Source: an uncultured Chloroflexia bacterium (GTDB lineage: Bacteria; Chloroflexota; Anaerolineae; JAAYZQ01). From it: a stretch of DNA of 64,000 nt. This document shows positions 2,411-28,061 of the stretch, piece after piece. The notes under the pieces were generated by a model. It ran no database searches and was not told the DNA's origin. It saw nothing but the letters and a program-made list of their open reading frames with translations. Both the position numbers and the translations under genes were made by a program. The stretch's first letter is position 1. Every line of letters begins with the position of its first letter. The DNA lies in contig CAVOXA010000010.1 in assembly GCA_963700285.1 (NCBI GenBank), positions 1,312,001-1,376,000 on the forward strand, written 5' to 3'.

Positions 2411-2419
2411 TTCTATTAT

Positions 2420-5330: not shown

Positions 5331-5355
5331 TTCACGTTACTCCGTGAGACGAATC

Positions 5356-6573: not shown

Positions 6574-6590
6574 GGTTCCTCCCTGCGCGG

Positions 6591-7949: not shown

Positions 7950-8027
7950 ATTATCTCCTCCGTAGCTCAACCTCCCGCAGGTTGGACCGACTGTCCGCAG
8001 TCGGCATCTGCAGGAGGTTCGCTCTGT

Positions 8028-9905: not shown

Positions 9906-9907
9906 CA

Positions 9908-10867: not shown

Positions 10868-12018
10868 GCGCTGCCGCTCTCCCAGGTCTGGGTCGTATGG
10901 GCATCGAGGCTGTCCCGGTCCAGCTTGAAGCCAAAGCCGGGCTCCTGAGGCACAGAGATCGTGCCATCGTCGTTGATCAGGTAGGGCTCGGCCAGCATGA
11001 AATCACGCGAGGGTTCGGTCCAGGCCGGCGGGTCGACGGGGAACTCGAACCAGGGGCAGTTGGGCGTCGCGGCCGCCAGGTGCAGGTTGGCCCCCAGGCC
11101 GATGCCGTTGGACCAGGTGTGGGGAATGAACTTTTTGAAAGCCATCTCGGCCATGCCCGCCACTTTGCGAAGCTGGGATATGCCCTCGGAAAAGGCGGCG
11201 TCGGCCTGGATGATGTCGTAGCAGTTGCGCTCGATAAGCTGCCGGTACTCGTGCAGCCCGATGTTCAGCTCGCCGCCGGCGATGGGAATGTCGACCCGCG
11301 CCGTCAGCGCGGAAAGCTGCTCATAGTTGTAGCGGGGCAGCGGCTCCTCCAGCCACAGCAGGTCCAATTCCTCCAGCGCCCGGGCCACCCGCAGCGCATC
11401 GGCAAAGGTCCAAAAGTTGTGGGGGCCGGGGCTGGGCATGACGTGCGACTGGTTGGCGTCGGCCATGAGCGCCAGGTCGTCGCCAAACTCGGCGCGCACC
11501 CGCTGCACGGCGTCGATATCGTCGTCGATGTCGGGGCGGCGCAGGCGCAGCTTGAAGGCGCGAAAGCCCCGCTGGCGCAGCATGTGCAGCCGCTCGATCT
11601 GCTCCGCAGGCTCGCAGACCTCGGCCAGGCTGGCGTAGGCCGGCAGCGAGTCCTGGTAGCCGCCCCACAGGCGGTACACCGGCTGGTTGCAGGCTTGCCC
11701 AATGATGTCCCACAGCGCCATCTCTACGCCCCAGGGATAGGAGCCATCCCGCGCCGCGTGGCGCAGGATGGGGCTGATGCGCTCGATGGCAAAGGGGTCC
11801 TTGCCCAGGATGTAGGGCGACACCAGGTTGGCCACGGTGTGCAGGCCGATGGGGTCGCCGTGGGGCAGCGCCCCCAGGCCCGTAATGCCGTCGTCGGTGG
11901 TCACCTCGACCAGGGTACAGACGTTGTGCTCAAAAGTCCGTCCCGGCGCCCACGAAGGGTGCAGAGGCGCCGGCAGCGGATGGCTCACGATGCGGCAGCG
12001 GATGCGGTCTATCTTCAT
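10864..12018 (-). CDS. Mandelate racemase/muconate lactonizing (enolase superfamily) enzyme
   Basis: GVEMALWDIIG, LMADAN, WLEEP, AGGE; GGAG RBS upstream of ATG 12018. Confidence 0.9.
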   Translation of the reverse strand: MKIDRIRCRIVSHPLPAPLHPSWAPGRTFEHNVCTLVEVTTDDGITGLGALPHGDPIGLHTVANLVSPYILGKDPFAIERISPILRHAARDGSYPWGVEMALWDIIGQACNQPVYRLWGGYQDSLPAYASLAEVCEPAEQIERLHMLRQRGFRAFKLRLRRPDIDDDIDAVQRVRAEFGDDLALMADANQSHVMPSPGPHNFWTFADALRVARALEELDLLWLEEPLPRYNYEQLSALTARVDIPIAGGELNIGLHEYRQLIERNCYDIIQADAAFSEGISQLRKVAGMAEMAFKKFIPHTWSNGIGLGANLHLAAATPNCPWFEFPVDPPAWTEPSRDFMLAEPYLINDDGTISVPQEPGFGFKLDRDSLDAHTTQTWESGSA

Positions 12019-12196
12019 GGCAGGTTCTCCAGGAGGGGGTCGCTGTCTCCAAAGAGCAAGCGGACAGGGGAGCTGGATGCACCATCCTGTGTCGTATGGC
12101 ACAGGTGCCAGCTTTGCTCCTTACACCGGGCGCGAACCCGATCTGGCAGTGACTGCACGTCGTCAGCTCCTCGTTGGTCGTTGCGGATGCAGAGGT

Positions 12197-12225
12197 ATTG
12201 TATCAGATAAGGCCCAGGGTGTCAA
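12197..12225 (-). promoter_or_regulatory. Sigma70-type promoter for the leftward catabolic operon
   Basis: Minus strand TTGACA-17 bp-TACAAT with extended -10 TG. Confidence 0.65.
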
Positions 12226-12401
12226 GGGTGGGTTAACATCACGTGAGGAATAAAGTCAGACTGTACGGGAGGTGAGCCTTTCCCATTGCCAGCCAAAGCC
12301 ATTGTCCCTAACCCGTAGCTGGCGCGAACCTTGCTCGAGCCCCCGTCCCGGGGGCGGACCCAGCCAAGAGGGCGGACACGGGATTGACAACGAACCAATA
12401 T

Positions 12402-12719
12402 CTAGCCTGTCGCGGCATGAGCAAAGGGTCTGACTTCCCGCTCGAGACGAGCACCCAGCAGGTCTTCGGCCACGTCCAGATCATAGTCCACCTGCAAGCC
12501 CAGCCAGAACTCAGGAGACATGTCAAAGAAACGCGCCAGCCTCAGCGCCGTGTCAGCCGTTATGCGGCGCTTGCCCAGCACAATCTCATTGATGCGTCGA
12601 GCTGGTACACCGATGTCAATTGCCAGTCGATTCTGGCTCAAGCCCATCGGCTTGAGGAATTCCTCGAGCAGTACCTCTCCTGGGTGGACAGGATTGAGTT
12701 TATCCTCCGCCATAGTCAC
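12402..12719 (-). CDS. higA: HigA family antitoxin
   Basis: PVHPGEVLLEEFLKPMGLSQNRLA...RINEIV...ITADTALRLARFF...FWLGLQ. Confidence 0.92.
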   Translation of the reverse strand: MTMAEDKLNPVHPGEVLLEEFLKPMGLSQNRLAIDIGVPARRINEIVLGKRRITADTALRLARFFDMSPEFWLGLQVDYDLDVAEDLLGARLEREVRPFAHAATG

Positions 12720-12725
12720 GCCTTT

Positions 12726-12978
12726 CTAGTGGTAGTCAACAATTTCTACCTCGAGCACATCGCCCTCCCACCACTCAAAGCAGATGCGCCATTGCTCGTT
12801 GATGCGAATGCTGTACTGTCCTTCCCGATCTCCTTTTAGCTTCTCCAGGCGATTTGCAGGTGGGACACGCAGATCGTTCAAGGTCACGGCACGATTGAGC
12901 ATCCGAAGCTTGCGCAAGGCGACTTGTTGGATGTCATGCGGCAGCTTGCGGGAACGCTGTCGCGAAAGATCTTCGGTT
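12726..12978 (-). pseudogene. higB: HigB (RelE/ParE family) toxin, N-terminally truncated
   Basis: ..RSRKLPHDIQQVALRKLRML..DLRVPPANRLEKLKGDREGQYSIRINEQWRICF..VEIVDYH; no in-frame start for the usual MIKSF-like N-terminus. Confidence 0.75.
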
Positions 12979-13029
12979 GACGACGGATCGATGAGGACCG
13001 CGGTCCTTGGCCCGATGCGCTGCCCAACA

Positions 13030-13578
13030 CTAAAACGCCGGAGGCGTGATAACCGAGATAAACCGCACCGTCTGGTCCCCCCGGGGCTTCATATCGCGCA
13101 GCATCGCGCCTTCGAAACAGGCGGTATCGCCCGGGCCCAGGAGGTATGCATCGTCGCCCAGCCGGATCTCCAGTTGCCCCTGCAGGACATAGACAAACTC
13201 CTCGGTGGTCTCGCCAAAGCCGGCCAGGGGCCTTTGCTCGCCCGGCTCCCACTCGGTCATGAAGGCTTCCAGCCTCTGGCTGGTGCTGGGGGTCAGTAGC
13301 TGGAAGGCGAGTTCTGTTCCCGACGCGGGCCAGGTGATGCGCATGCGCTCCTGGCGCCTGACGACGGGACTCGCCGCCCCCGGTTCGAGCAGGAAGTGAA
13401 AGACCGGTACCTCGAGGGCCGTGCTGATCTTGTACAGCGAATCGATGGAGGGGCTGGTCACGTCTCGCTCGACCTGGCTGATAAAGCTGGCGGTCAGGCC
13501 GGCGCGCTCCGCCAGCGCGCCCTGGCTGAGGCCCAACTCTTTGCGGCGGGCGCGAATCCGGTCCCCAAGTGGCGGCAT
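13030..13578 (-). CDS. XRE-family HTH regulator with cupin domain (PuuR-like)
   Basis: LGDRIRARRKELGLSQGALAERAGLTASFISQVER; cupin EEFVYVLQG...LGPGD. Confidence 0.9.
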   Translation of the reverse strand: MPPLGDRIRARRKELGLSQGALAERAGLTASFISQVERDVTSPSIDSLYKISTALEVPVFHFLLEPGAASPVVRRQERMRITWPASGTELAFQLLTPSTSQRLEAFMTEWEPGEQRPLAGFGETTEEFVYVLQGQLEIRLGDDAYLLGPGDTACFEGAMLRDMKPRGDQTVRFISVITPPAF

Positions 13579-13616
13579 TCCTTCACCTCCTTGTTGGTTG
13601 TTGCCGATCCCGATCT

Positions 13617-13645
13617 ATTGTAGCAGATACCTTCAATCAAGTCAA
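13617..13645 (-). promoter_or_regulatory. Sigma70-type promoter of the XRE regulator
   Basis: Minus strand TTGACT-17 bp-TACAAT with extended -10 TG. Confidence 0.6.
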
Positions 13646-13733
13646 GCAGCACTTTATATTCTACTAAGAAAAGAGCTTTACTGTAGACAAGTGACATCTA
13701 TGCTTTACTGTGGTTCTGCAAATAAAGCAATAC

Positions 13734-13762
13734 TTGACAAGGGGGCCGGGGTATGATAGAAT
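13734..13762 (+). promoter_or_regulatory. Sigma70-type promoter of the lyase-MttB operon
   Basis: TTGACA-17 bp-TAGAAT with extended -10 TG. Confidence 0.7.
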
Positions 13763-13851
13763 GGCAGCCGTGAACTCGTGCAGTGAACAGCGGATCGCGG
13801 CCGTGGGCGTGATCCAGCCTCAACGAAAGAGCGAAAAAGGGAGAAGGGACG

Positions 13852-14997
13852 ATGAATCGCAAAGAGACCGAGGGCAAAGGGATCGCGACGCGCTGCATCC
13901 ATACCGGCGTTCCGGACGGTGGTTTGTGGGCGCCCGTCAAGACCCCACTCATCATGTCCAACAGCTATGACCTGGGAGGGCTGGCGGTTGCCGACCTGCC
14001 CGCCGAGGCTTTTGTTTACACGCGCAACGGCACGCCCAACGCCCGTTACCTGGAGGAAAAGCTGGCCGACCTGGAGGGGGCCGAGGACTGTGTTCTCACC
14101 GCCAGCGGCGTCGCCGCCATCTCTGGCTCCTTTCTGACGCTGCTGAACACGGGCGACCACATCATCTCCTCCGACGTGGTCTATATCGCCATCCACGACC
14201 TGCTGGTTGAGCATTGCCCCCAGCGTTTGGGCATCCAGACCAGCCTCGTCGATACCTCGGACCTGGCCGCGGTAAAAGCGGCGCTGACGCCCCAGACCAA
14301 GATCATCCACGTCGAAACGCCCGGCAACCCGACCACGCGCATCAGCGACATTGCCGCCCTGGCCGAGATCGCCCGGGAAGCCGGCGCCCTGCTCACGGTG
14401 GACAGCACCTGGTCGGGGTTGCTCAGCCAACAGCCGCTGGAACTGGGCGCCGACCTGGTCTTTCACAGTCTGTCCAAGTACGTCAACGGCCAGGGGGACG
14501 CCGTGGCCGGCGCCGTCCTGGGCAGCCAGGACCTTGTCGACCGGATACGCCAGTTTGCCGTGGTGACGCTGGGTGCTTGCATCAGCCCCTTCAACGCCTG
14601 GCAGATCATGCGCGGCTCAGAGACGCTGCCCCTGCGCCTGGAGCGCCATTCGGCCAATGCCCTGGCCGTGGCCGAGTTCCTCGAAGCCCACCCCAAGGTG
14701 GCCTGGGTGCGCTACCCCGGCCTGCCGAGCCATCCCCAGCACGAGACCGCCAGGGTGCAGATGAGCTACTACTCCGGGATGCTCAACTTTGACATCGTGG
14801 GCGACGCCAGCCAGCGCCTCGAGGTGATCCGCCGGCTCAAGTTCTTTCGCCACGCCACCTGCCTGGGCCACGACGAGAGCCTCATCGCCCTCTATCCATG
14901 GGAAGATCCGAGCTTCTACCGGGTCAGTGTCGGTCTGGAGGATGTCCAGGACCTCATCGACGATCTGGACCAGGCCCTGGCCGTAGTCGAGGTATAA
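13852..14997 (+). CDS. Cys/Met metabolism PLP enzyme (methionine gamma-lyase/cystathionine gamma-synthase family)
   Basis: YTRNGTP, ETPGNPT, VDST, HSLSKYVNG, RYPGLPSHPQH, RVSVGLED. Confidence 0.9.
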   Translation: MNRKETEGKGIATRCIHTGVPDGGLWAPVKTPLIMSNSYDLGGLAVADLPAEAFVYTRNGTPNARYLEEKLADLEGAEDCVLTASGVAAISGSFLTLLNTGDHIISSDVVYIAIHDLLVEHCPQRLGIQTSLVDTSDLAAVKAALTPQTKIIHVETPGNPTTRISDIAALAEIAREAGALLTVDSTWSGLLSQQPLELGADLVFHSLSKYVNGQGDAVAGAVLGSQDLVDRIRQFAVVTLGACISPFNAWQIMRGSETLPLRLERHSANALAVAEFLEAHPKVAWVRYPGLPSHPQHETARVQMSYYSGMLNFDIVGDASQRLEVIRRLKFFRHATCLGHDESLIALYPWEDPSFYRVSVGLEDVQDLIDDLDQALAVVEV

Positions 14998-15000
14998 GAC

Positions 15001-15033
15001 AACCTCCCGCAGGCTTCAAGCCTGCGGGAGGTT
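15001..15033. repeat. AACCTCCCGCAGG palindromic element (hairpin, possibly terminator-like)
   Basis: aacctcccgcaggctt-c-aagcctgcgggaggtt; related copies at 7969-8019 and 42589-42685. Confidence 0.7.
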
Positions 15034-15059
15034 GCCCAGTATTCACACAAGGAGGAAAC

Positions 15060-16495
15060 ATGATCGAGACCCAAGGTTTGAGACAGACGAGCGCCCACTA
15101 CTCTCGGCTGGGCGCCCAAGAGTGCGAAAAGATCCACCGGGCCAGCATCGAGATCCTCGAGCATGTCGGCGTGGAGGTCCACGACGAGAAGGCGCTGGAC
15201 CTGCTGGTCAAAGGTGGGGCCCAGGCCGACGGCATCGTCGTCCGCATCCCGGAGCTGATGGTCCTCAAGGCCCTGGCCGTCACGCCCAAGGGCACGACCC
15301 TGTTCGACCAGAATGGCAAAGTCGCGATTCGAGCCCAGGGCCACAACAGCTACTATGGCGGCGGCTCCGACTGCCTCTACGTCCTGGACCACCGGACGAA
15401 CCAGCGGCGTCTGGCCGTGCTCCAGGACGTGGTCGACGCCCAGATCGTGCAGGACGCCCTGCCTGAGGTCAGCTTTGTGATGTCGGCCTTTCTGCCCTCC
15501 GACGTCGACTCCCGCATCTATGACCGCTACCAGATGGAGGCCATGCTCAACCACACCACCAAACCCATCGTCTTTGTCTCGCCCGACTTTGAAGGCTGCG
15601 AGCTGGCCATCGAGATGGCCGAGATCGTCGCCGGCGGCGCCGAGGCCTTCCAACGCCGTCCCTTTGCCACCTGCTACATCAATGTCACCGACGGTCTGCG
15701 TCGCCAACCAGGAGGCCCTGCAAAAGTGCATGTTCCTGGCCGGCAAGGGCCTGCCCCAATTGTACATCCCCCTGGGCGATGGGCCCCACAGCATCGCCGG
15801 CAACACGGCCTACCAGTGGACCGGGGTGCTGCTGGGCATCGTCCTGGCCCAGCTGGTGCGCGAAGGCTCGCCGGTCGTCGTCCCCGGCTGGGGCGGCGGG
15901 CTCAAGAACATGAAGACCATGGCCAGCTCCTACGGCCAGGCCGATCGCCAGGGCATCGCCCTGGCCATGGGCCATTACTACGGCCTGCCCACCTTTGGCA
16001 TGGCCGGCTGCACCGACTCCAAGGTGCTCGATGCCCAGGCGGGGGCCGAGATCGCCCTCAGCCTGGTGCTGCAGACCCTCGAAGGCGGCCACATCATCCA
16101 CGACCTGGGCTTCATGGACTCGGGCATGCAGGGTTCGCTGGCCCTGATGGCCATCTGCAACGACTGGATCCAGTGGATCCGCCACGCCACCGGCGGCGTC
16201 GACGTCAGCCACGGAGGGCATGGCCCTGGACGTGATCCACGAGCTGGGGCCCAGCGGCGACTACATATCCCACCCACACACCCTGGCTCACTGCCGCGAC
16301 GGCTGCTACCCCACGCTGGTCGACATGGGCAACTATTCACGTTGGGAAGCGCAGGGCTCGTTGGACATGACCCAGCGGGCGGCCAAGATGGTGGACCGCA
16401 TCCTCGAGAAGCACGAGGTCGAGCCGCTGCCGCCCGACGTCCAGCGTGACGTCCACGCCGTAGTCGAGCGCGAAGCCAGCCGCGTCGGCGCCTAA
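15060..16495 (+). CDS. MttB (trimethylamine methyltransferase) superfamily protein, frameshifted
   Basis: IHRASIEILEHVGVEV, YYGLPTFGMAGCTDSKVLDAQAG, IHDLGFMDSG, ALDVIHELGP; ORFs 14898-16235, 15520-16449, 16220-16495. Confidence 0.88.
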
Positions 16496-16509
16496 GCCGA
16501 AAGAGGATT

Positions 16510-16585
16510 CACCGCAGAGGCACAGAGAACGCAGAGTCAAAACCTTCTTTTGGTTTTTTCTATGTGTTCTCCGCGCCTCTGCGGC
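16510..16585. repeat. CACCGCAGAG-type palindromic repeat
   Basis: caccgcagaggcacagagaacgcagag...gtgttctccgcgcctctgcgg. Confidence 0.7.
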
Positions 16586-16613
16586 AAGATCCTGGCTCCA
16601 GGACGGACTGATC

Positions 16614-17353
16614 ATGCGAATCCATGGAAACCGGGGCCTGGGCATTATCATCGTCGACGACGTCTATCCCGGCTTCCCCGGCGACGTGCGCAACGCCAGC
16701 GCCTATCCCTTTCCCATCCAGTACGAGATCGCCCAGGGCGTGGACCTGGTCAAGCTGGTCGTGGACGAGGACAAGTCGCCCTGCCTGGGACCGGTGCTGC
16801 GCGCGGCGCGAGAAACTGGAATCCATGGGCTGCCGGGCCATCGCCGCCGAGTGCGGCTATTTCGCCTACTTTCAGCAAGAGGTCGCCGCCCACGTCAACG
16901 TGCCCGGTGTTCATGTCCAGCCTGTTGCAGGTGCCCTGGGCCCAGCAGCTCATCGGGCCCGACAAGGTCGTGGGCATCCTGGCCGCCTCCTCGCCCTTTC
17001 TGACTGAGGCTCACCTGGCAGCGGTCGGCGTCCAGGTCGGCAGCAATTACGTCGTCGCCGGGGCGATGGACGGCGGCCGCTGCCCGGAATTCGAGAACCT
17101 GTGGATCTCGGACCTGCGCCCCGACCCGCCGCGGGCTGACTATGAGACGGCCGAGCGGGATTTCGTGGCCGTGGGCGTCGACTTTTTCCGGGAGCAGCCC
17201 AACATGGGGGCCATGGTCCTGGAATGCACCGGCTTTCCGCCCTTTGCCCGCGCCCTGCAGCGCGAGATCGATATCCCCCTCTTTAGCTGGGGGACCCTGC
17301 TGGACTATGCCTACTCGGTCGCGGTCCACCGCGACTACTATGGGCATGTCTAG
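16614..17353 (+). CDS. Asp/Glu/hydantoin racemase superfamily protein, frameshifted
   Basis: PGDVRNASAYPFPIQY, AIAAECGYFAYFQ, VFMSSLLQVP, MVLECTGFPPF (two-Cys racemase pattern). Confidence 0.8.
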
Positions 17354-17433
17354 TCGTGGTGGTTGCACCGCAGAGGCGCAGAGAACACAGAGAAAACCAA
17401 AACTGATACACAACAACGAATTTAGAATCAAAC

Positions 17434-17472
17434 GAATTCGAATGGGACGAGCAGAAGGCTCGGGTCAACCTC
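17434..17472 (+). pseudogene. BrnT toxin N-terminal remnant
   Basis: EFEWDEQKARVNL, the typical BrnT start motif, with no start codon; in frame with downstream antitoxin-like ORF. Confidence 0.55.
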
Positions 17473-17751
17473 ATGCGCGCCGAGTACGATTTTCGCGGCG
17501 GTGTTCGTGGCAAACACCACGAGACCTACCGCCAGGGCCACGCCGTCAAGATCCAGACAGAGGACGGAACCGTTGATGTCCGCTGTTACACCCTCGAAGA
17601 CGGCGCGGTCCTATTGGAACCCGAGGTCCGCCAGTATTTCCCCGACTCTGAATCTGTGAACAAGGCTCTCCGCGCGCTAATCGACCTCGTGCCCGCCAAG
17701 CGCAAGGCCGTTGCCGAATCCCAGGATGATTATGAGATAAGCCAGGAATGA
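17473..17751 (+). CDS. Small antitoxin-like protein (BrnT-partner type)
   Basis: MRAEYDFRGGVRGK...VLLEPEVRQYFPDSESVNKALRAL, a pattern typical of small proteins downstream of brnT. Confidence 0.6.
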   Translation: MRAEYDFRGGVRGKHHETYRQGHAVKIQTEDGTVDVRCYTLEDGAVLLEPEVRQYFPDSESVNKALRALIDLVPAKRKAVAESQDDYEISQE

Positions 17752-18039
17752 GCTAACCCCTCGCCCCGAAAAGCCGCAAGGCCTGTCGCGGGCGTCCCCC
17801 TTGACGCCATGTCACTGCCCTGCCACTGATCCTCCAACGCTCGAGCCATGCCCGCGCTGAATCCCTTGGCAAGCTCGGGAGGGGCCTCAGTCGAATCGTC
17901 CGCGACGTGGCGATATCGACACGCTCCAAGCAGCTATCGTCGTTCAGCTACAATTCCGGCCCGTGCACGCTTTGGACTCGAAAGCGACCAGATCTGCGGG
18001 TCCGTGCCTCGTCATACCCCCTGGGCTCGCCTCCATGCT

Positions 18040-18068
18040 TTGCGGATCCACCCCAGCAATGGTATAAT
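18040..18068 (+). promoter_or_regulatory. Putative promoter of the HNH-NACHT cassette
   Basis: TTGCGG-17 bp-TATAAT with extended -10 TG. Confidence 0.55.
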
Positions 18069-18235
18069 AACTACCGGGTGAGTCTGTTGAATGTTGACCT
18101 TCCACCCTCACGGGGACAGCGCCGATGGCAAAGGACACGAAAGCTCACCTGGACGGTTCCGGAGCCATTGCCCAGGACCACAGCCCCTCTGGTTGCCGTC
18201 CGCAGCGTGTGCCGCGCACAAGGAGTACAAAGGCC

Positions 18236-18727
18236 ATGAGAGACGACTTTAACAAGCAAACCATAGAAACCCTGGCGGACAGAGCCGGCAACCGTTGCTC
18301 TAACCCAGAGTGCCGCCAGCCTACCAGCGGCCCGCGCAGCGAGTCGACCAAGACGGTCAACATCGGCGTCGCCGCCCACATCACGGCCGCTTCAGAGGGT
18401 GGCCCTCGCTACGACCCCACGCTCACCCCCGAGCAGCGCCGACACCCCGACAACGGCCTCTGGCTCTGCCAGAACTGCGCCAAGCTGGTGGACAACGACG
18501 CCCTGGCATATCCGGTGGACCTGCTGCAGGTATGGAAGCGCCAGGCCGAAGATACGGCCCGGCAGGAGCTCCAGCGGCGCGGGGCGCCCAAAGACCAGCC
18601 CGGCGCCTCTTCCCGGGTCGTTCACACCGGCAGCGGAGGACTGGCCCAGGACGGCAGCGTGGCCGCCGGCAAGGGTGGCGTCGCCGTAGACGGAGACGTG
18701 CACGGCGATATCCGCATCGGTGGGTGA
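18236..18727 (+). CDS. HNH endonuclease-like effector with C-terminal Gly-rich amyloid-like motif (alternative in-frame start 18125)
   Basis: AGNRCSNPEC...GVAAHITAASEGGPRY...NGLWLCQNCAKLVD; AGGAG before ATG 18236; ends GSGGLAQDGSVAAGKGGVAVDGDVHGDIRIGG*. Confidence 0.8.
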   Translation: MRDDFNKQTIETLADRAGNRCSNPECRQPTSGPRSESTKTVNIGVAAHITAASEGGPRYDPTLTPEQRRHPDNGLWLCQNCAKLVDNDALAYPVDLLQVWKRQAEDTARQELQRRGAPKDQPGASSRVVHTGSGGLAQDGSVAAGKGGVAVDGDVHGDIRIGG

Positions 18728-18742
18728 GGAAGGCAGCAGACC

Positions 18743-21549
18743 ATGACGGACGACCTCGCCAGACGCTTGGCCCAACTTCGAGACGCCTACGAGAGCGGGA
18801 TTCTGGACGACGACACCTACCAGGCGACCATGGCTGCCCTTAGTGCGGAGCCTGACGGGACAGCGATACTGGTTGGCTCTGGGGCCGTCGCCCAAAAGGA
18901 CAGCGTCGCGGCTGGTGCCGGCGGCGTGGCCGTAGGCCAAGACGTGGAAGGTCACATCATCTATGCCGAGCAGGGTGCGACCGTCGTCATCGGCGAGGCG
19001 CCCGGTAAAAATGACCGCCGTGGACCGCGAGTCGGCTCTGGGCCGCTACCTGCACCACGTCATCAGCCGCAACCGCTACTTGCAGTTCCAGGGCATCCGC
19101 TCCGGCGGGCGGCTGGTCCACATCGAGCTGGACCGCATCTACGTCACCCTGCGGGCCACCCGGCAGCGAGTGGTCGCAGGTGGAGGATGACTGGCTGGCT
19201 CACGAGGCGGCCCTGGCGCCCGGCGAGTGCCGCCGCTTGCGCAGGGCACGGCCGTCATGGCCTCCACCGAGACCGTGACCGTCAGCGTCAACGAGGCCCT
19301 GGCCGAGCACTCCCGCCTGGTCGTGCTGGGCGACCCTGGCAGCGGCAAGACGACGCTGCTGCGCTACCTGGCCTTGCTCTATGCCCGCGACCTGGCCGAG
19401 GGTTCGACATCTGGTCCGGGACAAGCTGGGGCTGGACGAGAGCGGCCGACTGCCCATTCTGCTGCCCCTGCGCCAGATCGGCGCCTATCTGCAGGCCCAC
19501 CGTGCTGTCGAGGACGGCACCGAGGGCCACGTCCTGCTGCTCGACTTTCTGTTGCGTACGTTGGCAAATGAGCGCATCACGCTTGCCGGCCGACTTTTTC
19601 GACGAGTGGCTGGCCAGGAGGCAAGGCTGTTATCCTGCTGGACGGGCTGGACGAGGTGGCCGATCCCAACCTGCGGCGGCGGGTCTCCGCCTGGTGGAGG
19701 CCTTCACCCGCGCCTATCCTGACTGCCGCTACGTCGTCACCAGCCGCATCGTGGGCTACACCGGCCCGGCCCGCCTGGGCTGAAGGCTACGCCACGACCA
19801 CCGTGCGCGATTTTACGCATGGCCGACGTAGAGCGCTTCCTGGCCAACTGGCACCGCCTGGTGGCCGTGGGCCAGATGGGACCGGGCGACAGCGCCGAAG
19901 CCTACGCCGCCGAGCAGACCCGACCAATTGCTGCGGGCCATTCGGGCCAACGAGCGCATCCGCGAGCTGGCCATCAATCCCCTGATGCTGACCGTCATCG
20001 CCATGGTCCACCGCGACCGGGTCAAGCTGCCCGACCGCCGGGCCGAGCTCTACGCCGAGGCGGTGGATGTGCTGCTGGGCAAGTGGGAGGAGGCCAAGGG
20101 CGTGCAGGAGGTGCCCATCCTGCGAGGGCCAACCCTTTGACACCGGCGACCGGCGGCTGATGCTGCAAAGCGTGGCCCTGCGCATGCACGAGGCGGAGCA
20201 GAAGGAGGTGGCGTCGGCGACCTGCGCCGCTGGCTGGGCGAGATGTTCCACGAGATCGTGGGCGACTGGCGAGCTGCGGAGCGGGCGGTCAACCGCTTCC
20301 TGCATGTCATCGAGGAACGGACCGGTCTGCTGGTGGCCCGTGGCGAGGGGGTCTATGCCTTCTCGCACCTGACCTTCCAGGAGTACCTGGCCGCCCTGGC
20401 CGTGGCCGCGCGGGACGACTACGTGGCCTACACCCTGACCCGCGTCGCCCGATCCCTGGTGGCGAGAGGTGATCCTGCTGGAAGCCGGCTATCTGAGCTA
20501 TGCAGAGCAAGGAGCGCACCACGCGCTTGATCCGGGCCATCGCCGAACTGGAAGAGGAGCCGGAGCCCTTCACAACCTGGTGCTGGCCGCCGAGTGCCTG
20601 CGCGACGTGGGCGTCGAACCGGGTGGAAGGAAGCCTTTGGAGACAGAGGTGCAACAACGGTTGCGGTCCGAGCTGGAGCGCGGTTCGCCCATCGTAGTTT
20701 CGGCGCGTCTCTGGCAGGTTCAGCCACGCGTTGCCTGGGTTCTGACGAGCGTGGCATCTGGCGGCCGATGGCCGCTGAGCCGCATTGAGCAGTGGCCGAT
20801 TCGGCGTCCGATCGCCGTTTTGGACGAGCCCTACGGCGAGCCGGAGTGGGTTGAGATTCCGGCCGGAGAGTTTTGGATGGGAGAGGAGAGAGACGATTCA
20901 CCGTGTTAACCTTGAGACTTTTCGCATCTCCCGCGTGCCCATCACCAACGCCCAGTACCGACTTTTTTGTGGAGGCAATGGGTCACGAATCACCATACCA
21001 TTGGGAGGAAGGCCGCCCGCCCAAAGGGTCGGAGAGCCATCCGGTGGTCAACGTCACCTGGCACGATGCCCTGGCCTATGCCGCTGGCTGAGCGAGGCGA
21101 CTGGCAAGCAATACTACCCTGCCCTCGGAGGCAGAATGGGAAAAGGCGGCGCGGGGGGACGCGGACAAACGGGTATTCCCCTGGGGCGATGCCTTCGAAA
21201 CGACTCGCTGTAACTGTAGGGAACTAGGATTGGGCAATACCACGCCGGTGGGCATCTTTCCCGAGGGGGCCAGTCCCTACGGTGTTTTGGACTTGAGCGG
21301 CAACGTCTGGGAGTGGACGCGGAGCTTATGGGGGTGACCGAGTACTCGGTTCATACCCGTATGATCCAGAGGGATGGGCGTGAGAACCTGCAGGCCGGAG
21401 ATGACGTCCTCCGGGTGGTGCGTGGCGGGTCGTTCGTCAGTGATCAGAGGGGCGTCCGCTGCGCCTACCGCTTCAGGCACGGCCCGGTCAACAGGCGCAA
21501 CTATGTCGGGTTTCGGGTGGTGGTGGCCCCCGTTACCTCTGGTCTCTGA
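18743..21549 (+). CDS. NACHT/STAND NTPase with C-terminal FGE-sulfatase (CLec-fold) domain, receptor 1; many frameshifts
   Basis: SHOCT-like N-terminus, amyloid-like motif, Walker [77 protein letters not shown]...GFRVVV. Confidence 0.85.
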
Positions 21550-21612
21550 CCCTCCGATCTCTGGATCTCTGATCCGCTGTCCTCTGAAATCGCGCCGAAG
21601 GCGCGATCGCCG
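21408..21612 (+). other. DGR variable region 1 + IMH-like tail + hairpin
   Basis: Aligns ungapped (offset 4298) to 25706-25910; mismatches only at codon positions 1-2; hairpin atcgcgcc-gaa-ggcgcgat 21589-21607. Confidence 0.85.
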
Positions 21613-21624
21613 TGGGCGAAATTC

Positions 21625-22055
21625 AGACCTGACAGGTCTCAGAGAGCCGGTTGGTAGACCAGCAGGCCTGCAAAAAGGAGAGCTGCTGGCCGGCGCAGGT
21701 TCTGCTCAAGACCTGTCAGGTCTGAGGGAGCTGGCTGGTAGAGTAGGGGTCCCGAAAAAGGAGAGCTGCTGGCCGGCGCAGGTTCTGCTCAAGACCTGTC
21801 AGGTCTGAGGGAGCTGGCTGGTAGAGTAGGGGTCCCGAAAAAGGAGAGCTGCTGGCCGGCGCAGGTTCTGCTCAAGACCTGTCAGGTCTGAGGGAGCTGG
21901 CTGGTAGAGTAGGGGTCCCGAAAAAGGAGAGCTGCTGGCCGGCGCAGGTTCTGCTCAAGACCTGTCAGGTCTGAGGGAGCTGGCTGGTAGAGTAGGGGTC
22001 CCGAAAAAGGAGATCTGCTGGTCGGCGCAGGCCCTGCTCAAGACCTGACAGGTCT
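21625..22055. repeat. 83-bp tandem array built on the REP palindrome AGACCTG(A/T)CAGGTCT
   Basis: Palindromes at 21625, 21709, 21792, 21875, 21958, 22041; intervening units near-identical (first one diverged). Confidence 0.92.
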
Positions 22056-22071
22056 GTGGAAGGACTCGAGA

Positions 22072-22665
22072 ATGGTTAAACCAGTGCCACTGCAATACGG
22101 CCAAACCTACCACATCTACAGCCGGGGCAACAACCGGGAAACGATCTTTGTCGAGGAGCGCAACTATCGGCACTTTCTGCGTCTCTACGCTCAGCACGTG
22201 CTGCCAATTGCCGACACTTACGCCTACTGCCTGCTGCCCAACCACTTTCACCTTCTCGTGTACATCAAGGAAATGGACCATCCATCAGCTCCAGATCCAA
22301 AGCGATCACCCAGCCAGTACTTCTCCAACCTCTTGAATGCCTATGCCCGCGCCTTCAACAGGGCCTACCGTCGCAGCGGATCCCTCTTCCAGCGCCCGTT
22401 TGGCCGGAAACTGGTGGCATCCGATGGCTACTTCACCTGGCTTATCGCTTACATCCACCAGAATCCCCAAATGCACGGCATTGTCGATGACTTTCGCGGC
22501 TGGGACTACTCTTCCTACCAGGCTCTGAAGTCGAGCCAGCCGACGCGCCTGAGGCGAGAAGAGGTTCAGGCCCTGTTTGGTGGTCCTCGCGCGTTTTCCA
22601 TCTTCCACGAGCAGCAGATCCCATTGGGCCGGGTAGCTCCTCTGGTAGCTGAGGATTTCGACTAG
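22072..22665 (+). mobile_element. REP-associated tyrosine transposase (RAYT, Y1/HUH)
   Basis: YHIYSRGNNR, YCLLPNHFHLL (HUH), GSLFQ, YIHQNP (catalytic Tyr), WDYSSY; flanked by REP palindromes at 22041 and 22670. Confidence 0.85.
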
Positions 22666-22697
22666 CCCCAGACCTGACAGGTCTTTGGAGGTGAACC

Positions 22698-25600
22698 ATG
22701 GACTTTACCTTTGACACCTGGAAAGAAGCAGCCGCAAACAGGCTGCAAAGCCTTGGCGACCGGCTGGAGCGTTTGAAAACACGGGAAGGGCCCTATCTCC
22801 TCTACGGCACCCTCTGCGGGCTGAGCCTCTGGCCGCTGGTGGAAGCGGCACAGTCCGGGCAGTTGCTGCCCGTGATCATGGCCCTGGGCGGCGTTGCCGG
22901 CGGTGTGGGGGGCAACCTCATCGCCGAGCAAATACAGCGCTGGCAGGACCAGGGCGCCGGGGTCAACGAGGAGACGGTCGCCGCCTGGGTGGTGGAAGGG
23001 GCTGCTGGCAACACCGACCTGCGCCAGGCGTTGGATTCGATCCTGGAGCGGCTCGAAGCGGTTCAGAACGCCGAAGCTGCCCTTGCAGTGGACGACCGGC
23101 AGTGGTTCGCGGGCACGCTTCGCGCGGAGATGGCGCAATTGGGCAACCTCCCCCGCTTTGAGGCGACGCTGATCGGCTCAGGGACCATCGCCCAGGACCA
23201 CAGCGTCGCAGCGGGTGCTGGCGGTGTGGCAGTGGGCCGGGATGTGGGCGGGGATGTCGTGATGCCCGGCGCGCACCAGGAAAAGCACTATCACCCTGCG
23301 CCCACGAGCGAGCAGCAGAGACAGCAAGAAAAAGAGGACCTGGACCGCTACCTGCGCAACCTGCAACGCCTTTGCAATGCCCTGCCCCTCGCCGCGATGG
23401 CTGAAGATGAAACAGTTCATCGCCGGGCCGAGGTCACGCTGAACCGGGTCTATATCTCCCTCAACACGACCGCCCGGGTGCCCTTGACGCAGGATGGCCA
23501 GGACCGCCACAGCCGCGAGCGTCCAGGATTTGGCGATAAAGAACGTCCGCTCACCGCGCTGGAGGCAACTGCCCGGGAAGCCCGCCTGGTCATCCTGGGC
23601 GACCCGGGATCCGGCAAATCGACCTTCGTCAACCACCTGGCCTACCTGCTCGCCGGGGCACGGCTGGGCCAGGGCGAGACCCCCGATGGCTGGCCCCACG
23701 GGCCATTGCTGCCCATCCGCATCCTGCTGCGCGAGTTGGCGGCCGTGCTGCCTGGGGATCAAGATCTCCAGGGCCTGCCTGCCGAAAAGCGGGCCGTCAG
23801 ACTCGTGGACGAGATCTGGAGCCACCTGCGACAGGAAACGGCGAGCACCTACCGGGCCGCGGGCGTGCACAGGATCCTGGAGCGAGAGGTAGACCGCTGC
23901 CAGGCCCTGGTCATTTTCGACGGATTGGATGAGGTGGCTCCGGAACGCCGCGGGATGGTCAGGGATGCGGTGGATGCATTTGGCCAGTTGTGTGGCGAGA
24001 ACCGGGTGTTGGTCACCTGCCGCGTGCGCTCGTACAGCAAGGGCGTTTCTCTCGGCTCCTTTGCCAGTGTCACCCTGGCCCCTTTCGAAGGCGACCAGAT
24101 CGAGGAATTTGTGACACGTTGGTATCAGGCTTTGGCAGATCTGGGCACCATCAAAAGCCAGGAGGCTGAAAAGCGGGCCAAGAACCTCCATGAGGCTGTC
24201 CAGCCCATGCAGGAGCTGGCACGCAATCCGCTGCTCCTGACGACGATGGCCGTGGTGCACACCGCCCAGGTGGAGCTGCCGCGCGAACGGGCCCGGCTGT
24301 ACCAGCGCTGCGTGGATGTGTTGCTCCGGCGCTGGCACAAACACAAGGTTGGAGAAGCACCGCTACTGGATCGACTGGGTGTGAGCGAAGCCGAGCTGCT
24401 GGCTGCTCTACGAGAGGTAGCCTACGAGGCTCATCATAGAGGTGGTACAGAAGAGGAAGGAGACCTGCCCCGCAGCTTGGTGCTCAAGATCATGGCCGGG
24501 CACCTGTCTGGGCACTATGGCCGTGCCGAACAGTTTCTGGAGTACGTTGACGCCCGGGCCGGCCTGCTCATCGGCCGGGGCGGGGCGGAGGAGCCGGTCT
24601 ACAGCTTCCCACACCGGACATTCCAGGAATACCTGGCCGGCTGCCACCTGGCGCTGGGCGGCCGGGATTTTGGCCGCCGCCTGCGGCGCCTGTTGGCTGA
24701 AGGCGATCGCTGGGCGCTGGCCTCTCAACTTGGCGCGGAACACCTTCTGTACAACGTCGGCGACGTCACACGCGTCCTGGATGCGAGCTACACCCTCTGT
24801 CCTGTTGCGGAGCCAGACCTGGAGGAAGCCTGGCGAGGGGTAGCTTGGGCCGGGCAGTTTGCCACGGAGGTGGGCCAGCGAAGGGTCGAGCAGGACGAGG
24901 ATGCGCCAGACGGCGGCGCGGCCTTTCTGCGCCGTCTGGTACCCCGGCTCGTCACGATTCTGGCCCAGGAGAAGCTTGGGCCAGTAGAGCGTGCCGCCGC
25001 CGGGCGCGCGCTGGGGGTCTTGGGTGACCCGCGGCCAGGCTTCGGTGTGGATCCCGAGTCTGGGCTTCCCGATCTTGCCTGGTGTGCGGTGCCTGCCGGT
25101 CCTTTCCCCATGGGCAGCGACGACGAGGATGAACTCGCTTTCGACAACGAGAAACCACAGCATGAGGCGGTGATAGCTTACGACTACCGCATTGCCCAGT
25201 ACCCGCTGACCAACCTCCAGTACGCCGCTTTTGTCAGCGCTCAGGGCTATCAAGAACGCGGCTACTGGACCGGGGCCGGCTGGAAATGGAAAGGCGACAA
25301 GACGGATCCACGCACCTTTGGCGGCTCTTTCGACCTGCCCAACCATCCTGTTGTGGGGCTGAGCTGGTATGAGGCTGTGGCCTTCTGCCGCTGGCTCACA
25401 GAAAAGCTGCGTGAGACGGGTGGCATTACTCAGAATGATGAGATCCGGCTGCCCACGGAGGCCGAATGGGAGAAAGCGGCGCGGGGAACCGGCGGGCAGA
25501 CCTACCCCTGGGGTGACGAGTTTGACCCGGCTCGCTGCAACATGTACGACACAGGGATTGGCAACACCAGCGCGGTAGGCGCCTTTCCTGGTAGTGCGTC

Positions 25601-25847
25601 CCCCTATGGCCTTCTGGACACGAGCGGGAACGTGTGGGAGTGGTGCGGCACCAAATGGTGCGAAAGTTATGAGGAGGAGCCTGACGAGTCTCTGGAAGGG
25701 GATGCCCTCCGGGTGGTGCGTGGCGGGTCGTTCGGCCTTAGTCAGAGGCTCGTCCGCTGCGCCTGCCGCTACTGGTACGGCCCGGACGGCTGGGACTACT
25801 ATGTCGGGTTTCGGGTGGTGGTGGCCCCCGTTACCTCTGGTCTCTGA
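22698..25847 (+). CDS. NACHT/STAND NTPase with C-terminal FGE-sulfatase (CLec-fold) domain, receptor 2 (intact, 1049 aa)
   Basis: N-terminal helical domain, amyloid-like motif, [83 protein letters not shown]. Confidence 0.93.
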   Translation: MDFTFDTWKEAAANRLQSLGDRLERLKTREGPYLLYGTLCGLSLWPLVEAAQSGQLLPVIMALGGVAGGVGGNLIAEQIQRWQDQGAGVNEETVAAWVVEGAAGNTDLRQALDSILERLEAVQNAEAALAVDDRQWFAGTLRAEMAQLGNLPRFEATLIGSGTIAQDHSVAAGAGGVAVGRDVGGDVVMPGAHQEKHYHPAPTSEQQRQQEKEDLDRYLRNLQRLCNALPLAAMAEDETVHRRAEVTLNRVYISLNTTARVPLTQDGQDRHSRERPGFGDKERPLTALEATAREARLVILGDPGSGKSTFVNHLAYLLAGARLGQGETPDGWPHGPLLPIRILLRELAAVLPGDQDLQGLPAEKRAVRLVDEIWSHLRQETASTYRAAGVHRILEREVDRCQALVIFDGLDEVAPERRGMVRDAVDAFGQLCGENRVLVTCRVRSYSKGVSLGSFASVTLAPFEGDQIEEFVTRWYQALADLGTIKSQEAEKRAKNLHEAVQPMQELARNPLLLTTMAVVHTAQVELPRERARLYQRCVDVLLRRWHKHKVGEAPLLDRLGVSEAELLAALREVAYEAHHRGGTEEEGDLPRSLVLKIMAGHLSGHYGRAEQFLEYVDARAGLLIGRGGAEEPVYSFPHRTFQEYLAGCHLALGGRDFGRRLRRLLAEGDRWALASQLGAEHLLYNVGDVTRVLDASYTLCPVAEPDLEEAWRGVAWAGQFATEVGQRRVEQDEDAPDGGAAFLRRLVPRLVTILAQEKLGPVERAAAGRALGVLGDPRPGFGVDPESGLPDLAWCAVPAGPFPMGSDDEDELAFDNEKPQHEAVIAYDYRIAQYPLTNLQYAAFVSAQGYQERGYWTGAGWKWKGDKTDPRTFGGSFDLPNHPVVGLSWYEAVAFCRWLTEKLRETGGITQNDEIRLPTEAEWEKAARGTGGQTYPWGDEFDPARCNMYDTGIGNTSAVGAFPGSASPYGLLDTSGNVWEWCGTKWCESYEEEPDESLEGDALRVVRGGSFGLSQRLVRCACRYWYGPDGWDYYVGFRVVVAPVTSGL

Positions 25848-25910
25848 CCCTCCGATCTCTGGATCTCTGATCCGCTGTCCTCTGAAATCGCGCCGAAGGC
25901 GCGATCGCCG
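25706..25910 (+). other. DGR variable region 2 + IMH-like tail + hairpin
   Basis: Partner of 21408-21612; hairpin at 25887-25905. Confidence 0.85.
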
Positions 25911-25922
25911 CGGGCGCAATTC

Positions 25923-25960
25923 GACCAGACAGGTCTTGTTCTGTAAGACCTGTCTGGTCT
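25923..25960. repeat. Variant REP doublet (gaccagacaggtct / agacctgtctggtct)
   Basis: Inverted pair related to AGACCTG(A/T)CAGGTCT, right after the DGR hairpin. Confidence 0.65.
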
Positions 25961-26075: not shown

Positions 26076-28061
26076 ACGGCGCTGAAGCGCCGACTACGAA
26101 CGGGCTTGAGCCAGACCAGGTCCCGTTCGTAGTGCGCGTTTCAACGCGCTATCTGAGCCGCGGGTCCAGTTTTCAACCAGAACGGCGCTGAAGCGCCGAC
26201 TACGAACGGGCTTGAGCCAGACCAGGTCCCGTTCGTAGTGCGCGTTTCAACGCGCTATCTGAGCCGCGAGTCCAGTTTTCAACCAGAACGGCGCTGAAGC
26301 GCCGACTACGAACGGGCATGAGCCAGACCAGGTCCCGTTCGTAGTGCGCGTTTCAACGCGCTATCTGAGCCGCGGGTCCAGTTTTCAACCAGAACGGCGC
26401 TGAAGCGCCGACTACGAACGGGCATGAGCCAGACCAGGTCCCGTTCGTAGTGCGCGTTTCAACGCGCTATCTGAGCCGCGGGTCCAGTTTTCAACCAGAA
26501 CGGCGCTGAAGCGCCGACTACGAACGGGCTTGAGCCAGACCAGGTCCCGTTCGTAGTGCGCGTTTCAACGCGCTATCTGAGCCGCGGGTCCAGTTTTCAA
26601 CCAGAACGGCGCTGAAGCGCCGACTACGAACGGGCTTGAGCCAGACCAGGTCCCGTTCGTAGTGCGCGTTTCAACGCGCTATCTGAGCCGCGGGTCCAGT
26701 TTTCAACCAGAACGGCGCTGAAGCGCCGACTACGAACGGGCTTGAGCCAGACCAGGTCCCGTTCGTAGTGCGCGTTTCAACGCGCTATCTGAGCCGCGGG
26801 TCCAGTCTTCAACCAGAACGGCGCTGAAGCGCCGACTACGAACGGGCTTGAGCCAGACCAGGTCCCGTTCGTAGTGCGCGTTTCAACGCGCTATCTGAGC
26901 CGCGGGTCCGGTTTTCAACCAGAACGGCGCTGAAGCGCCGACTATGAACGGGCATGAGCCAGACCAGGTCCCGTTCGTAGTGCGCGTTTCAACGCGCTAT
27001 CTGAGCCGCGGGTCCAGTTTTCAACCAGAACGGCGCTGAAGCGCCGACTACGAACGGGTTTGAGCCAGACCAGGTCCCGTTCGTAGTGCGCGTTTCAACG
27101 CGCTATCTGAGCCGCGGGTCCAGTTTTCAACCAGAACGGCGCTGAAGCGCCGACTACGAACGGGCATGAGCCAGACCAGGTCCCGTTCGTAGTGCGCGTT
27201 TCAACGCGCTATCTGAGCCGCGGGTCCAGTTTTCAACCAGAACGGCGCTGAAGCGCCGACTACGAACGGGCATGAGCCAGACCAGGTCCCGTTCGTAGTG
27301 CGCGTTTCAACGCGCTATCTGAGCCGCGAGTCCAGTTTTCAACCAGAACGGCGCTGAAGCGCCGACTACGAACGGGCATGAGCCAGACCAGGTCCCGTTC
27401 GTAGTGCGCGTTTCAACGCGCTATCTGAGCCGCGAGTCCAGTTTTCAACCAGAACGGCGCTGAAGCGCCGACTACGAACGGGCATGAGCCAGACCAGGTC
27501 CCGTTCGTAGTGCGCGTTTCAACGCGCTATCTGAGCCGCGGGTCCAGTTTTCAACCAGAACGGCGCTGAAGCGCCGACTACGAACGGGCTTGAGCCAGAC
27601 CAGGTCCCGTTCGTAGTGCGCGTTTCAACGCGCTATCTGAGCCGCGGGTCCAGTTTTCAACCAGAACGGCGCTGAAGCGCCGACTACGAACGGGTTTGAG
27701 CCAGACCAGGTCCCGTTCGTAGTGCGCGTTTCAACGCGCTATCTGAGCCGCGAGTCCAGTTTTCAACCAGAACGGCGCTGAAGCGCCGACTACGAACGGG
27801 CATGAGCCAGACCAGGTCCCGTTCGTAGTGCGCGTTTCAACGCGCTATCTGAGCCGCGGGTCCAGTTTTCAACCAGAACGGCGCTGAAGCGCCGACTACG
27901 AACGGGCATGAGCCAGACCAGGTCCCGTTCGTAGTGCGCGTTTCAACGCGCTATCTGAGCCGCGGGTCCAGTTTTCAACCAGAACGGCGCTGAAGCGCCG
28001 ACTACGAACGGGCATGAGCCAGACCAGGTCCCGTTCGTAGTGCGCGTTTCAACGCGCTATC
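26076..28061. repeat. 106-bp tandem array (18 full copies + partial 19th) of GTAG-type REP doublets (REPIN/BIME-like)
   Basis: Unit acggcgctgaagcgccgactacgaacggg(c/t)(t/a)tgagccagaccaggtcccgttcgtagtgcgcgtttcaacgcgctatctgagccgcg(g/a)gtccagttttcaaccaga; starts 26076, 26182 ... 27984; no ORFs in the track across 26086-28001. Confidence 0.95.

What the first reader, a model, noticed from the sequence alone, without database searches (positions are those of the whole stretch)
21408..25847. Two receptor 3' ends differ exactly as DGR variable regions do; template repeat is predictable
The genes are divergent upstream, yet 21408-21549 and 25706-25847 align without gaps. Codon differences: gtc/ggc, agt/ctt, gat/agt, ggc/ctc, tac/tgc, ttc/tac, agg/tgg, cac/tac, gtc/gac, aac/ggc, agg/tgg, cgc/gac, aac/tac. 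That is 18 substitutions in 13 codons, all at positions 1-2 and all non-synonymous, with position 3 invariant. Neutral drift gives the opposite pattern; adenine-specific mutagenic retrohoming from AAY codons gives this one. The region (RGGSF...GFRV) is the usual CLec ligand-binding VR. Predicted TR, approximately: CGTGGCGGGTCGTTC-(A/G)AC-AAT-AAT-CAG-AGG-AAC-GTC-CGC-TGC-GCC-TAC-CGC-(A/T)AC-AGG-AAC-nnC-CCG-(A/G)AC-AAC-AGG-AAC-AAC-nAT-nTC-GGG-TTT-CGG. No RT, Avd or TR is visible in this window, so these would be remote (trans) targets.
Basis: partly seen in the sequence, partly recalled or inferred. Interest (0 to 1): 0.9.

Follow-up and report, generated by a model that had tools for sequence, protein, structure and literature searches.

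The report
Hypermutated receptors that lost their mutator
Two neighbouring genes for likely immune receptors end in tips that differ in the pattern of a diversity-generating retroelement; a sister species has the rewriting machinery between the two genes, whereas this genome has a transposase gene and its repeats in that place, so the tips here are probably frozen.

Summary
In detail: 18 substitutions in 13 codons, split 9/9/0 by codon position. The genome assembly holds no template repeat (TR) for these two variable regions (VRs). The congener G001 has avd–TR–RT at the orthologous spot, between the two target genes. Against that TR, VR1 differs at 18 adenines plus 1 other base and VR2 at 22 plus the same 1; all 18 VR1/VR2 differences lie on TR adenines. 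So these are true DGR variable regions in NACHT–FGE/CLec receptors, but local targets whose core is replaced by a REP array and a RAYT gene, not remote targets. A second syntenic DGR in this genome lost its core at a RAYT/REP junction, two more are broken by RT–TR deletions, and one is intact with a non-matching TR. A core in the unassembled 11% or in a subpopulation is not excluded. Both receptors and an upstream HNH nuclease share a BASS-like motif, suggesting amyloid signalling (untested). The kind of system is known (Doré 2024); the RAYT/REP-linked loss and the motif pairing were not found in my searches.

The parts
18236..18727 (+). HNH-type endonuclease (163 aa) with a C-terminal Gly/Ala/Val-rich motif starting at about 18617; candidate effector
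   Evidence: PADLOC CBASS/SAVED-HNH endonuclease models E 4e-19; HNH_2 in 18 of 26 aligned homologs at E<=0.1; motif ends 0 aa from the stop
18743..21549 (+). Target gene 1: short N-terminal helix, shared motif (about 18863), NACHT, FGE/CLec with VR1; about 8 frame breaks in the assembly
   Evidence: intact homologs carry PF05729+PF03781; tblastn pieces in three frames; 8 breaks against a 0.35/kb baseline
21412..21529 (+). VR1 (118 bp homologous to the TR)
   Evidence: 18 adenine mismatches and 1 other (21504) against the G001 TR
21530..21612 (+). VR-specific 3' end (IMH side), TCTGA-rich spacer and hairpin 21589-21607 (8-bp stem, GAA loop); identical behind VR2
21625..22056 (+). REP/REPIN tandem array, 83 bp x 5.2; the first REPIN is orthologous to the one in front of avd in G001
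   Evidence: REPIN fold z -5.7
22072..22665 (+). RAYT-like HUH tyrosine transposase, standing where G001 has avd-TR-RT
   Evidence: NF047646 E 3e-15 but 56 bits, below the cut-off of 80; Y1_Tnp weak; synteny
22670..22684 (.). Right-hand REP; homology to G001 resumes at the ribosome-binding site of target 2 (22688)
22698..25847 (+). Target gene 2, intact, 1049 aa: N-terminal domain of no Pfam family, shared motif (about 23163), NACHT, FGE/CLec with VR2
   Evidence: PF03781 E 3e-54 and PF05729 E 1e-9; 0 frame breaks; N-terminal 200 aa has no Pfam hit
25710..25827 (+). VR2
   Evidence: 22 adenine mismatches and 1 other (25802, same site as in VR1) against the G001 TR
25828..25959 (+). 3' unit identical to that of VR1 up to 25910, hairpin 25887-25905, then a degenerate REP pair 25923-25959

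Best explanation
The two 3' ends are DGR variable regions of NACHT-FGE/CLec receptor genes whose avd-TR-RT core is absent from this locus and from the assembly, likely because it was deleted recently at REP repeats beside an inserted RAYT gene, which would leave both tips frozen. Shown: adenine-only mismatch to the congener's TR; the core between the same two genes in G001; REP array plus RAYT in its place here; no cognate TR in the assembly. From established DGR biology: RT-Avd copies the TR RNA, misreads adenines, and the cDNA replaces the VR. Inferred order of events: (1) the 205-bp 3' unit was homogenised between the two genes, (2) retrohoming diversified each copy, (3) a RAYT inserted beside the core, (4) recombination or RAYT nicking between the REPIN behind VR1 and the REPs flanking the RAYT removed the core. 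Inferred function: the CLec tip binds a foreign ligand, the NACHT oligomerises, and the shared short motif likely templates the same motif on the neighbouring HNH nuclease (BASS-type amyloid signalling) to abort infection.
For: TR match 18+1 and 22+1 mismatches, p 4e-12 and 1e-15; 31 TR adenines all at codon positions 1-2 and no stop codon reachable. Flanking synteny from window 1 to 18946 and an exact right junction at the RBS of target 2. The same REPIN sits behind VR1 here and in front of avd in G001. No cognate TR: the best non-self candidates have 21 or more non-A mismatches over 101 bp. The only intact DGR (L002) matches its own VR with 0 non-A mismatches but VR1/VR2 with 10 and 12. A second syntenic loss: G000 C10:1.4966-1.4980 Mb has an RT stub, REP and RAYT where G001 C12 has RT-avd-TR. 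The same layout target-RAYT-target occurs in G019:C244 with a different RAYT type, and a possible intermediate RT-avd-TR-RAYT piece-target in G012:C297. Contigs of runs X1 and X2 join RAYT to gene 2 at about 97% identity, so that junction is not peculiar to this assembly. The motif sits at an effector C-terminus and the next NLR N-terminus in the window, L034, L039 and L029. In three pairs the cognate partner scores best, 3 of 3 (two of the pairs were inferred only from equal contig length and source).
Against: G000 is 89% complete with 6.5% contamination, so a TR can be missing from the assembly. Run X1 holds both a RAYT-gene 2 contig (depth 5.8) and a 462-bp avd+TR contig about 87-91% like G001 (depth 3.6), which could be the same population. 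The 174 sites of the shared block not opposite a TR adenine are identical between the copies: the loss must be very recent, or retrohoming and conversion continue. Gene 1 has about 8 frame breaks and G001's avd, RT and VRs carry indels, so these loci may be low-coverage consensus of mixed strains. RAYT is not a dedicated partner: 1 of the 29 best class-wide RAYT loci has an FGE gene within 1.5 kb. The receptor and amyloid steps have no direct test.
Confidence: 0.65

Rival explanations
1. The VRs are still being diversified: the cognate TR (with or without its RT) lies in the unassembled part of the genome and acts in trans, or part of the population keeps the core at this locus as a structural variant.
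For: 89% completeness. avd+TR contig and RT pieces at depth 3.6-4.4 in run X1 beside the RAYT-gene 2 contig. X1 and X2 alignments stop at 21436, the first variable codon (weak). Zero non-adenine differences between the two 3' units. G001 has a remote VR of this class on C2. Doré 2024 reports both trans activity and coexisting intact variants (PMC10907252).
Against: The core's syntenic place is occupied by RAYT. No avd, TR or RT of this class above 76% identity in 7.05 Mb. Three other cores of this genome are also broken. No match of the class motif in viral contigs (0 loci). The X1 contig may belong to another congener.
Confidence: 0.28
2. The core is present at this locus and the assembler collapsed it across the REP array.
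For: A tandem array of near-identical 83-bp units lies at the junction; gene 1 consensus is poor.
Against: The contig is 2.15 Mb long and spans a 2-kb tandem array nearby. The same layout occurs in G019:C244, L045 and L117 from other assemblies. No leftover core sequence exists in the assembly.
Confidence: 0.05
3. No DGR was involved: gene conversion made the ends alike and positive selection fixed amino-acid changes.
For: The identical 83 bp beyond TR homology shows that conversion or duplication did occur.
Against: 18 of 18 differences fall on TR adenines (p 2.6e-13), and a non-coding TR beside avd and RT lies at the orthologous locus of G001.
Confidence: 0.01

Closest known systems
Clade 5D two-target STAND/NACHT-CLec DGRs and degenerate DGR loci of Thiohalocapsa PB-PSB1 (Doré et al. 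2024, PMC10907252; read parts 1-4 of 9, section 18 and passages; supplements not read)
   Same: Two targets, each NACHT plus one CLec/FGE with a VR; variable sites at codon positions 1-2; N-terminal shuffling; loci where MITE-like repeat arrays replace the RT or TR.
   Different: There each DGR class kept one complete locus; here 4 of 5 DGR loci found in the assembly are broken and none has an intact cognate core. The repeats here are REPINs beside a RAYT-like gene rather than IS-derived MITEs. The loss is shown against an orthologous intact cassette in a congener.
STAND NTPase-FGS conflict systems (Kaur et al. 2021, PMC8195603; Kibby et al., bioRxiv 10.1101/2022.07.19.500537; passages only)
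   Same: NACHT-FGS receptors proposed as DGR-diversified antigen sensors with adaptor domains shared with separate effectors.
   Different: The adaptor here is a short Gly/Ala/Val-rich motif rather than a folded EAD; the partner is a stand-alone HNH nuclease.
BASS amyloid signalling pairs (Dyrka et al., bioRxiv 10.1101/2020.01.06.895854; sections 7 and 9 and passages)
   Same: A motif of about 30 residues shared by an effector C-terminus and the N-terminus of an adjacent collinear NLR (15 bp apart here); in L029 it ends a small protein whose look-alike clusters carry HetE-N (14-22% of members) and RHIM (19%) (a lead).
   Different: The effector is HNH ('HNH', 'FGE' and 'retroelement' occur 0 times in that text); the sensor is a DGR-varied CLec rather than TPR/WD repeats; the match to BASS1-10 could not be tested because the logos are images.
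RAYT/REPIN systems; TnpA-REP association with prochlorosin genes (Laurenceau et al., bioRxiv 10.1101/2020.03.09.984088; part 1 of 2 read)
   Same: A HUH tyrosine transposase flanked by its REP palindromes, found next to a diversifying gene family.
   Different: Here it stands at the junction of a lost DGR core. That paper's own note withdraws support for a causal link, a caution that applies here too.

Membership tests
DGR target (variable region) | A non-coding TR that differs from the VR only at adenines | tested here: met
   In congener G001: 18+1 and 22+1 mismatches
DGR target (variable region) | TR adenines in AAY-type codons at positions 1-2, no stop reachable | tested here: met
   16/15/0 by position; 18 codons; about 10^17.9 protein variants; no stop
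DGR target (variable region) | VR at the C-terminus of a CLec/FGE fold | tested here: met
   PF03781 residues 796-1041; TvpA 2y3c E 1.2e-7
DGR target (variable region) | IMH at the VR end differing from IMH* of the TR | tested here: met
   Homology to the TR ends at 21529/25827; the following sequence is shared by the VRs and not by the TR
DGR target (variable region) | GC-rich hairpin 3' of the VR (myDGR rule: 7-10 bp stem, GRNA loop, 4-34 bp away; PMC6602519, passages) | tested here: inconclusive
   8-bp stem conserved behind 5 VRs, but with a 3-nt GAA loop and 59 bp away
Active DGR in this genome | Cognate TR with RT and Avd in the same genome | tested here: not met
   None in the 89%-complete assembly
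Active DGR in this genome | Read-level variation at TR-adenine sites | tested here: inconclusive
   Only Logan contigs of related strains were available; none resolves the VR
Clade 5D STAND-CLec DGR (Doré 2024) | Two targets with NACHT/nSTAND and a single CLec | tested here: met
Clade 5D STAND-CLec DGR (Doré 2024) | RT falls in clade 5D | not tested
   No reference RT set on hand; the G001 RT is frame-broken
BASS amyloid signalling pair | Matching motif at effector C-terminus and adjacent collinear NLR N-terminus | tested here: met
   Window, L034, L039, L029; only 3 copies in G000, all at this locus
BASS amyloid signalling pair | [quoted passage not shown] | tested here: inconclusive
BASS amyloid signalling pair | Motif forms amyloid and the NLR side seeds the effector side | not testable with these tools
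   Needs experiment; the complex predictor was not available
RAYT/REPIN | REP-associated tyrosine transposase family score | tested here: inconclusive
   NF047646 56 bits against a cut-off of 80
RAYT/REPIN | Flanked by inverted REP pairs | tested here: met
   7 of the genome's 12 exact REP sites lie at 21625-22684

The most novel reading that the evidence does not exclude
In Anaerolineae, RAYT/REP elements act as an off-switch and spreader for DGR immunity: REPs behind the VR hairpin mark a 3' cassette that is copied onto new receptors, and RAYT-linked deletion of avd-TR-RT locks in a selected receptor pair. These hypermutated NLRs would signal to an HNH nuclease through a prion-like amyloid motif, joining hypermutation, locking and amyloid signalling in one locus.
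Probability: 0.2. Interest if true: 0.8.

Novelty: new variant of a known kind. Interest (0 to 1): 0.5.

Why it matters
It shows that a pair of paralogue ends alone can predict a missing template repeat, here confirmed at 90 of 92 positions, so RT-anchored DGR surveys miss such orphaned loci. It gives a paired natural experiment: one congener has three complete cores, while this genome lacks two of them at RAYT/REP junctions. That makes testable whether DGR diversification is ended by repeat-mediated deletion, and whether receptors then decay or stay under selection. The motif pair points to a specific, testable output (HNH nuclease by amyloid templating) for DGR-varied NLRs, whose effectors are unproven.

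Tried and rejected
L002's TR as source: rejected, 10 and 12 non-A mismatches. The C14 TR remnant as source: rejected, only 31 bp match and its 3' end belongs to the C14 VRs. RAYT as a dedicated DGR accessory gene: rejected; 1 of 29 best class-wide RAYT loci had FGE within 1.5 kb (these were the 29 best non-self loci of the matches listed, several with short flanks), and 1 of 28 VR/TR-selected loci had a RAYT piece within 1.5 kb. Metagenome scan with the class motif: 2 loci, neither with a TR (L039 has a truncated avd, L040 none). Viral contigs: 0. Sequencing runs: no RNA holder listed; only contigs, so no read-level test. AlphaFold model of the HNH protein: pLDDT 48, motif region 27-30, not used and no fold search run. 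Complex prediction of the two motifs: tool not available, nothing folded. Atlas search of the target 2 N-terminus: best score 0.83, a lead only. Pseudogenisation of gene 1 after core loss: unresolved, because G001's loci with a core are also frame-broken. Look-ups of earlier findings returned nothing. Literature searches for the combinations: DGR+amyloid+NLR gave 2 papers with one 'amyloid' each, passage not displayed; DGR+RAYT gave 5 papers, 4 listed, one passage and one part read, neither describing the link; listings showed no such report. Subscription journals and supplements were not covered.
Full report
Observation. The two 142-bp ends align without gaps and differ at 18 bases in 13 codons, 9 at position 1, 9 at position 2 and none at position 3. 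In 32 paralogous codons upstream, position 3 is the commonest difference (17 against 11 and 8). The shared block runs 205 bp, from 21408 to 21612, and includes 63 bp of non-coding DNA with an 8-bp-stem GAA-loop hairpin.

The genes. Gene 2 (22698-25847) is an intact 1049-aa NACHT plus FGE-sulfatase protein, with a weak hit to the Treponema DGR target TvpA. Gene 1 (18743-21549) has the same architecture by homology to intact proteins but about 8 frame breaks against a rough baseline of 0.35 per kb. Named relatives of the gene 2 N-terminus are mostly Anaerolineae or other Chloroflexota (5 of 7 loci), so the host is probably of that group; this is an inference.

No template in this assembly. A scan of both strands of all 22 contigs that forgave only adenine mismatches found nothing better than 21 non-adenine mismatches apart from the two VRs themselves. 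The genome has three RT matches and one Avd. The single complete cassette (L002, target-RT-avd-TR) matches its own VR with 0 non-adenine mismatches but VR1 and VR2 with 10 and 12. The assembly is 89% complete.

The template is in the congener. Of 61 genomes searched with VR1, 22 matched, best the same-genus G001. Its contig C9 is syntenic with window 1-18946 and holds target 1, VR, hairpin, REPIN, avd, TR (317263-317380), RT and target 2, plus a remote VR on C2. Against this TR, VR1 has 18 adenine mismatches and 1 other, VR2 has 22 and the same 1, with no gaps. All 18 VR1/VR2 differences fall on the 31 TR adenines (p 2.6e-13); those adenines lie only at codon positions 1 and 2 and no stop codon can arise.

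What replaced the core. After VR1 the window follows G001 through the hairpin and the first REPIN, then continues as an 83-bp array, a RAYT-like gene (below the family cut-off) and one more REP, and rejoins G001 at the ribosome-binding site of target 2. Contigs of two runs of one study join RAYT to gene 2 at about 97% identity. The N-termini of both targets are syntenic with G001, but the NACHT-FGE bodies are not: the C-terminal 1 kb of gene 2 is closest to G001 target 1 and to its remote target, so modules have been shuffled.

The pattern repeats. At C10:1.4966-1.4980 Mb this genome has an RT stub, a REP and a second RAYT where G001 C12 has RT-avd-TR, with synteny on both sides; that VR has 20 non-adenine mismatches to the G001 C12 TR, so the class diverged there. 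Two further cassettes (C1, C14) fuse RT sequence directly to the 3' part of a TR. A third RAYT lies just upstream of the intact cassette's target. Elsewhere, G019:C244 has target-RAYT-target with another RAYT type, G012:C297 has RT-avd-TR-RAYT piece-target, L045 and L117 have target-RAYT, and G031:C75 has a RAYT 0.9 kb after the RT; L117 was picked by its RAYT. In relatives G001-G060, 3 of 22 RAYT loci lie within about 5 kb of a VR or TR match against 0.06 expected (hand-entered counts, related genomes, no control with other defence genes). Against a dedicated role, only 1 of the 29 best class-wide RAYT loci has an FGE gene within 1.5 kb. I read this as repeated opportunistic insertion that favours deletion, not as a DGR accessory gene.

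What argues for ongoing activity. The 174 sites of the shared block not opposite a TR adenine are identical, while orthologous DNA of G000 and G001 differs by about 10%, so homogenisation and mutagenesis were recent. Run X1 holds a 462-bp avd+TR contig about 87-91% like G001 at depth 3.6, beside the RAYT-gene 2 contig at depth 5.8. It may be the intermediate state, a trans core, or another species. Doré et al. saw both trans activity and coexisting intact variants (PMC10907252). I give this rival 0.28.

Likely output. The gene 15 bp upstream of target 1 encodes an HNH nuclease like those of CBASS effectors. Its last 36 residues are a Gly/Ala/Val-rich motif that recurs near the N-terminus of target 1 and after the N-terminal domain of target 2, and nowhere else in the genome. 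The same C-terminal/N-terminal pairing is in L034, L039 and L029; in L029 the upstream protein resembles clusters with HetE-N and RHIM members (a lead). This is the genomic signature that defines BASS pairs (bioRxiv 10.1101/2020.01.06.895854). Amyloid formation, binding and antiphage function are untested; the fold model was poor and the complex predictor was not available.

Comparison and verdict. DGR-varied NACHT-FGS sensors are described (PMC8195603; bioRxiv 10.1101/2022.07.19.500537), and so are two-target loci and degenerate loci with repeat arrays in place of RT or TR (PMC10907252). The finding works like, and by the TR test is, a DGR target pair; it fails the test for an active DGR in this assembly. 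Not found in my searches: RAYT/REPIN at lost DGR cores, and a BASS-like link from a DGR target to an HNH nuclease. Supplements were not read and could hold such cases. New variant of a known kind; interest 0.5.

Noticed in passing
G000 C1:1725072 (L003, L042) and C14:612319 (L041): Two more DGRs in which RT sequence is fused directly to the 3' part of the TR, removing avd and most of the TR; short sequence identity at the joins suggests microhomology deletion.
   Followed up: partly
G000 C10:1496285-1497800 (L118): VR, RT stub, REP, convergent RAYT, a restriction-endonuclease-like fragment (my reading of the sequence) and a second copy of the RT stub plus REP, in place of the complete DGR of G001 C12.
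   Followed up: yes
window 26076-28061: A 106-bp x 18.7 tandem array of a GTAG-type palindrome; 138 copies in 24 clusters genome-wide, the largest (26 copies) around a distant RAYT-like gene at C22:208385.
   Followed up: partly
window 25497 joined to 21290 in runs X1 and X2: A related strain joins the gene 2 body to a gene 1-type FGE half, showing recombination between the paralogues upstream of the VR.
   Followed up: no
L039:3043-3200 and L040:4350-4961: Metagenome loci of a related VR class: avd cut after about 150 bp and followed by the next target; a VR followed directly by a small helical protein gene with no core.
   Followed up: partly
L037 (G001:C2:1109609-1110600): The remote target of G001 is followed by a tandem array of the same REP as the window's RAYT, though G001 showed no RAYT of that type.
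   Followed up: partly
L034:10450-15800: All three G001 VRs differ from their own TR at the 3' end (two non-adenine sites or 1-nt indels), whereas the window's VRs match it better; sequencing error or drift.
   Followed up: no
L002:1140-1300 and VR 3' ends in L114-L129: Many FGE-target VRs of this class are followed by TCTGA/TCTGG-rich short repeats and then a GC-rich hairpin, a possible shared cis element.
   Followed up: no
window 14898-16449: A probable trimethylamine-methyltransferase-like gene split over two frames (frame breaks at 15699 and 16208), possibly consensus error.
   Followed up: no
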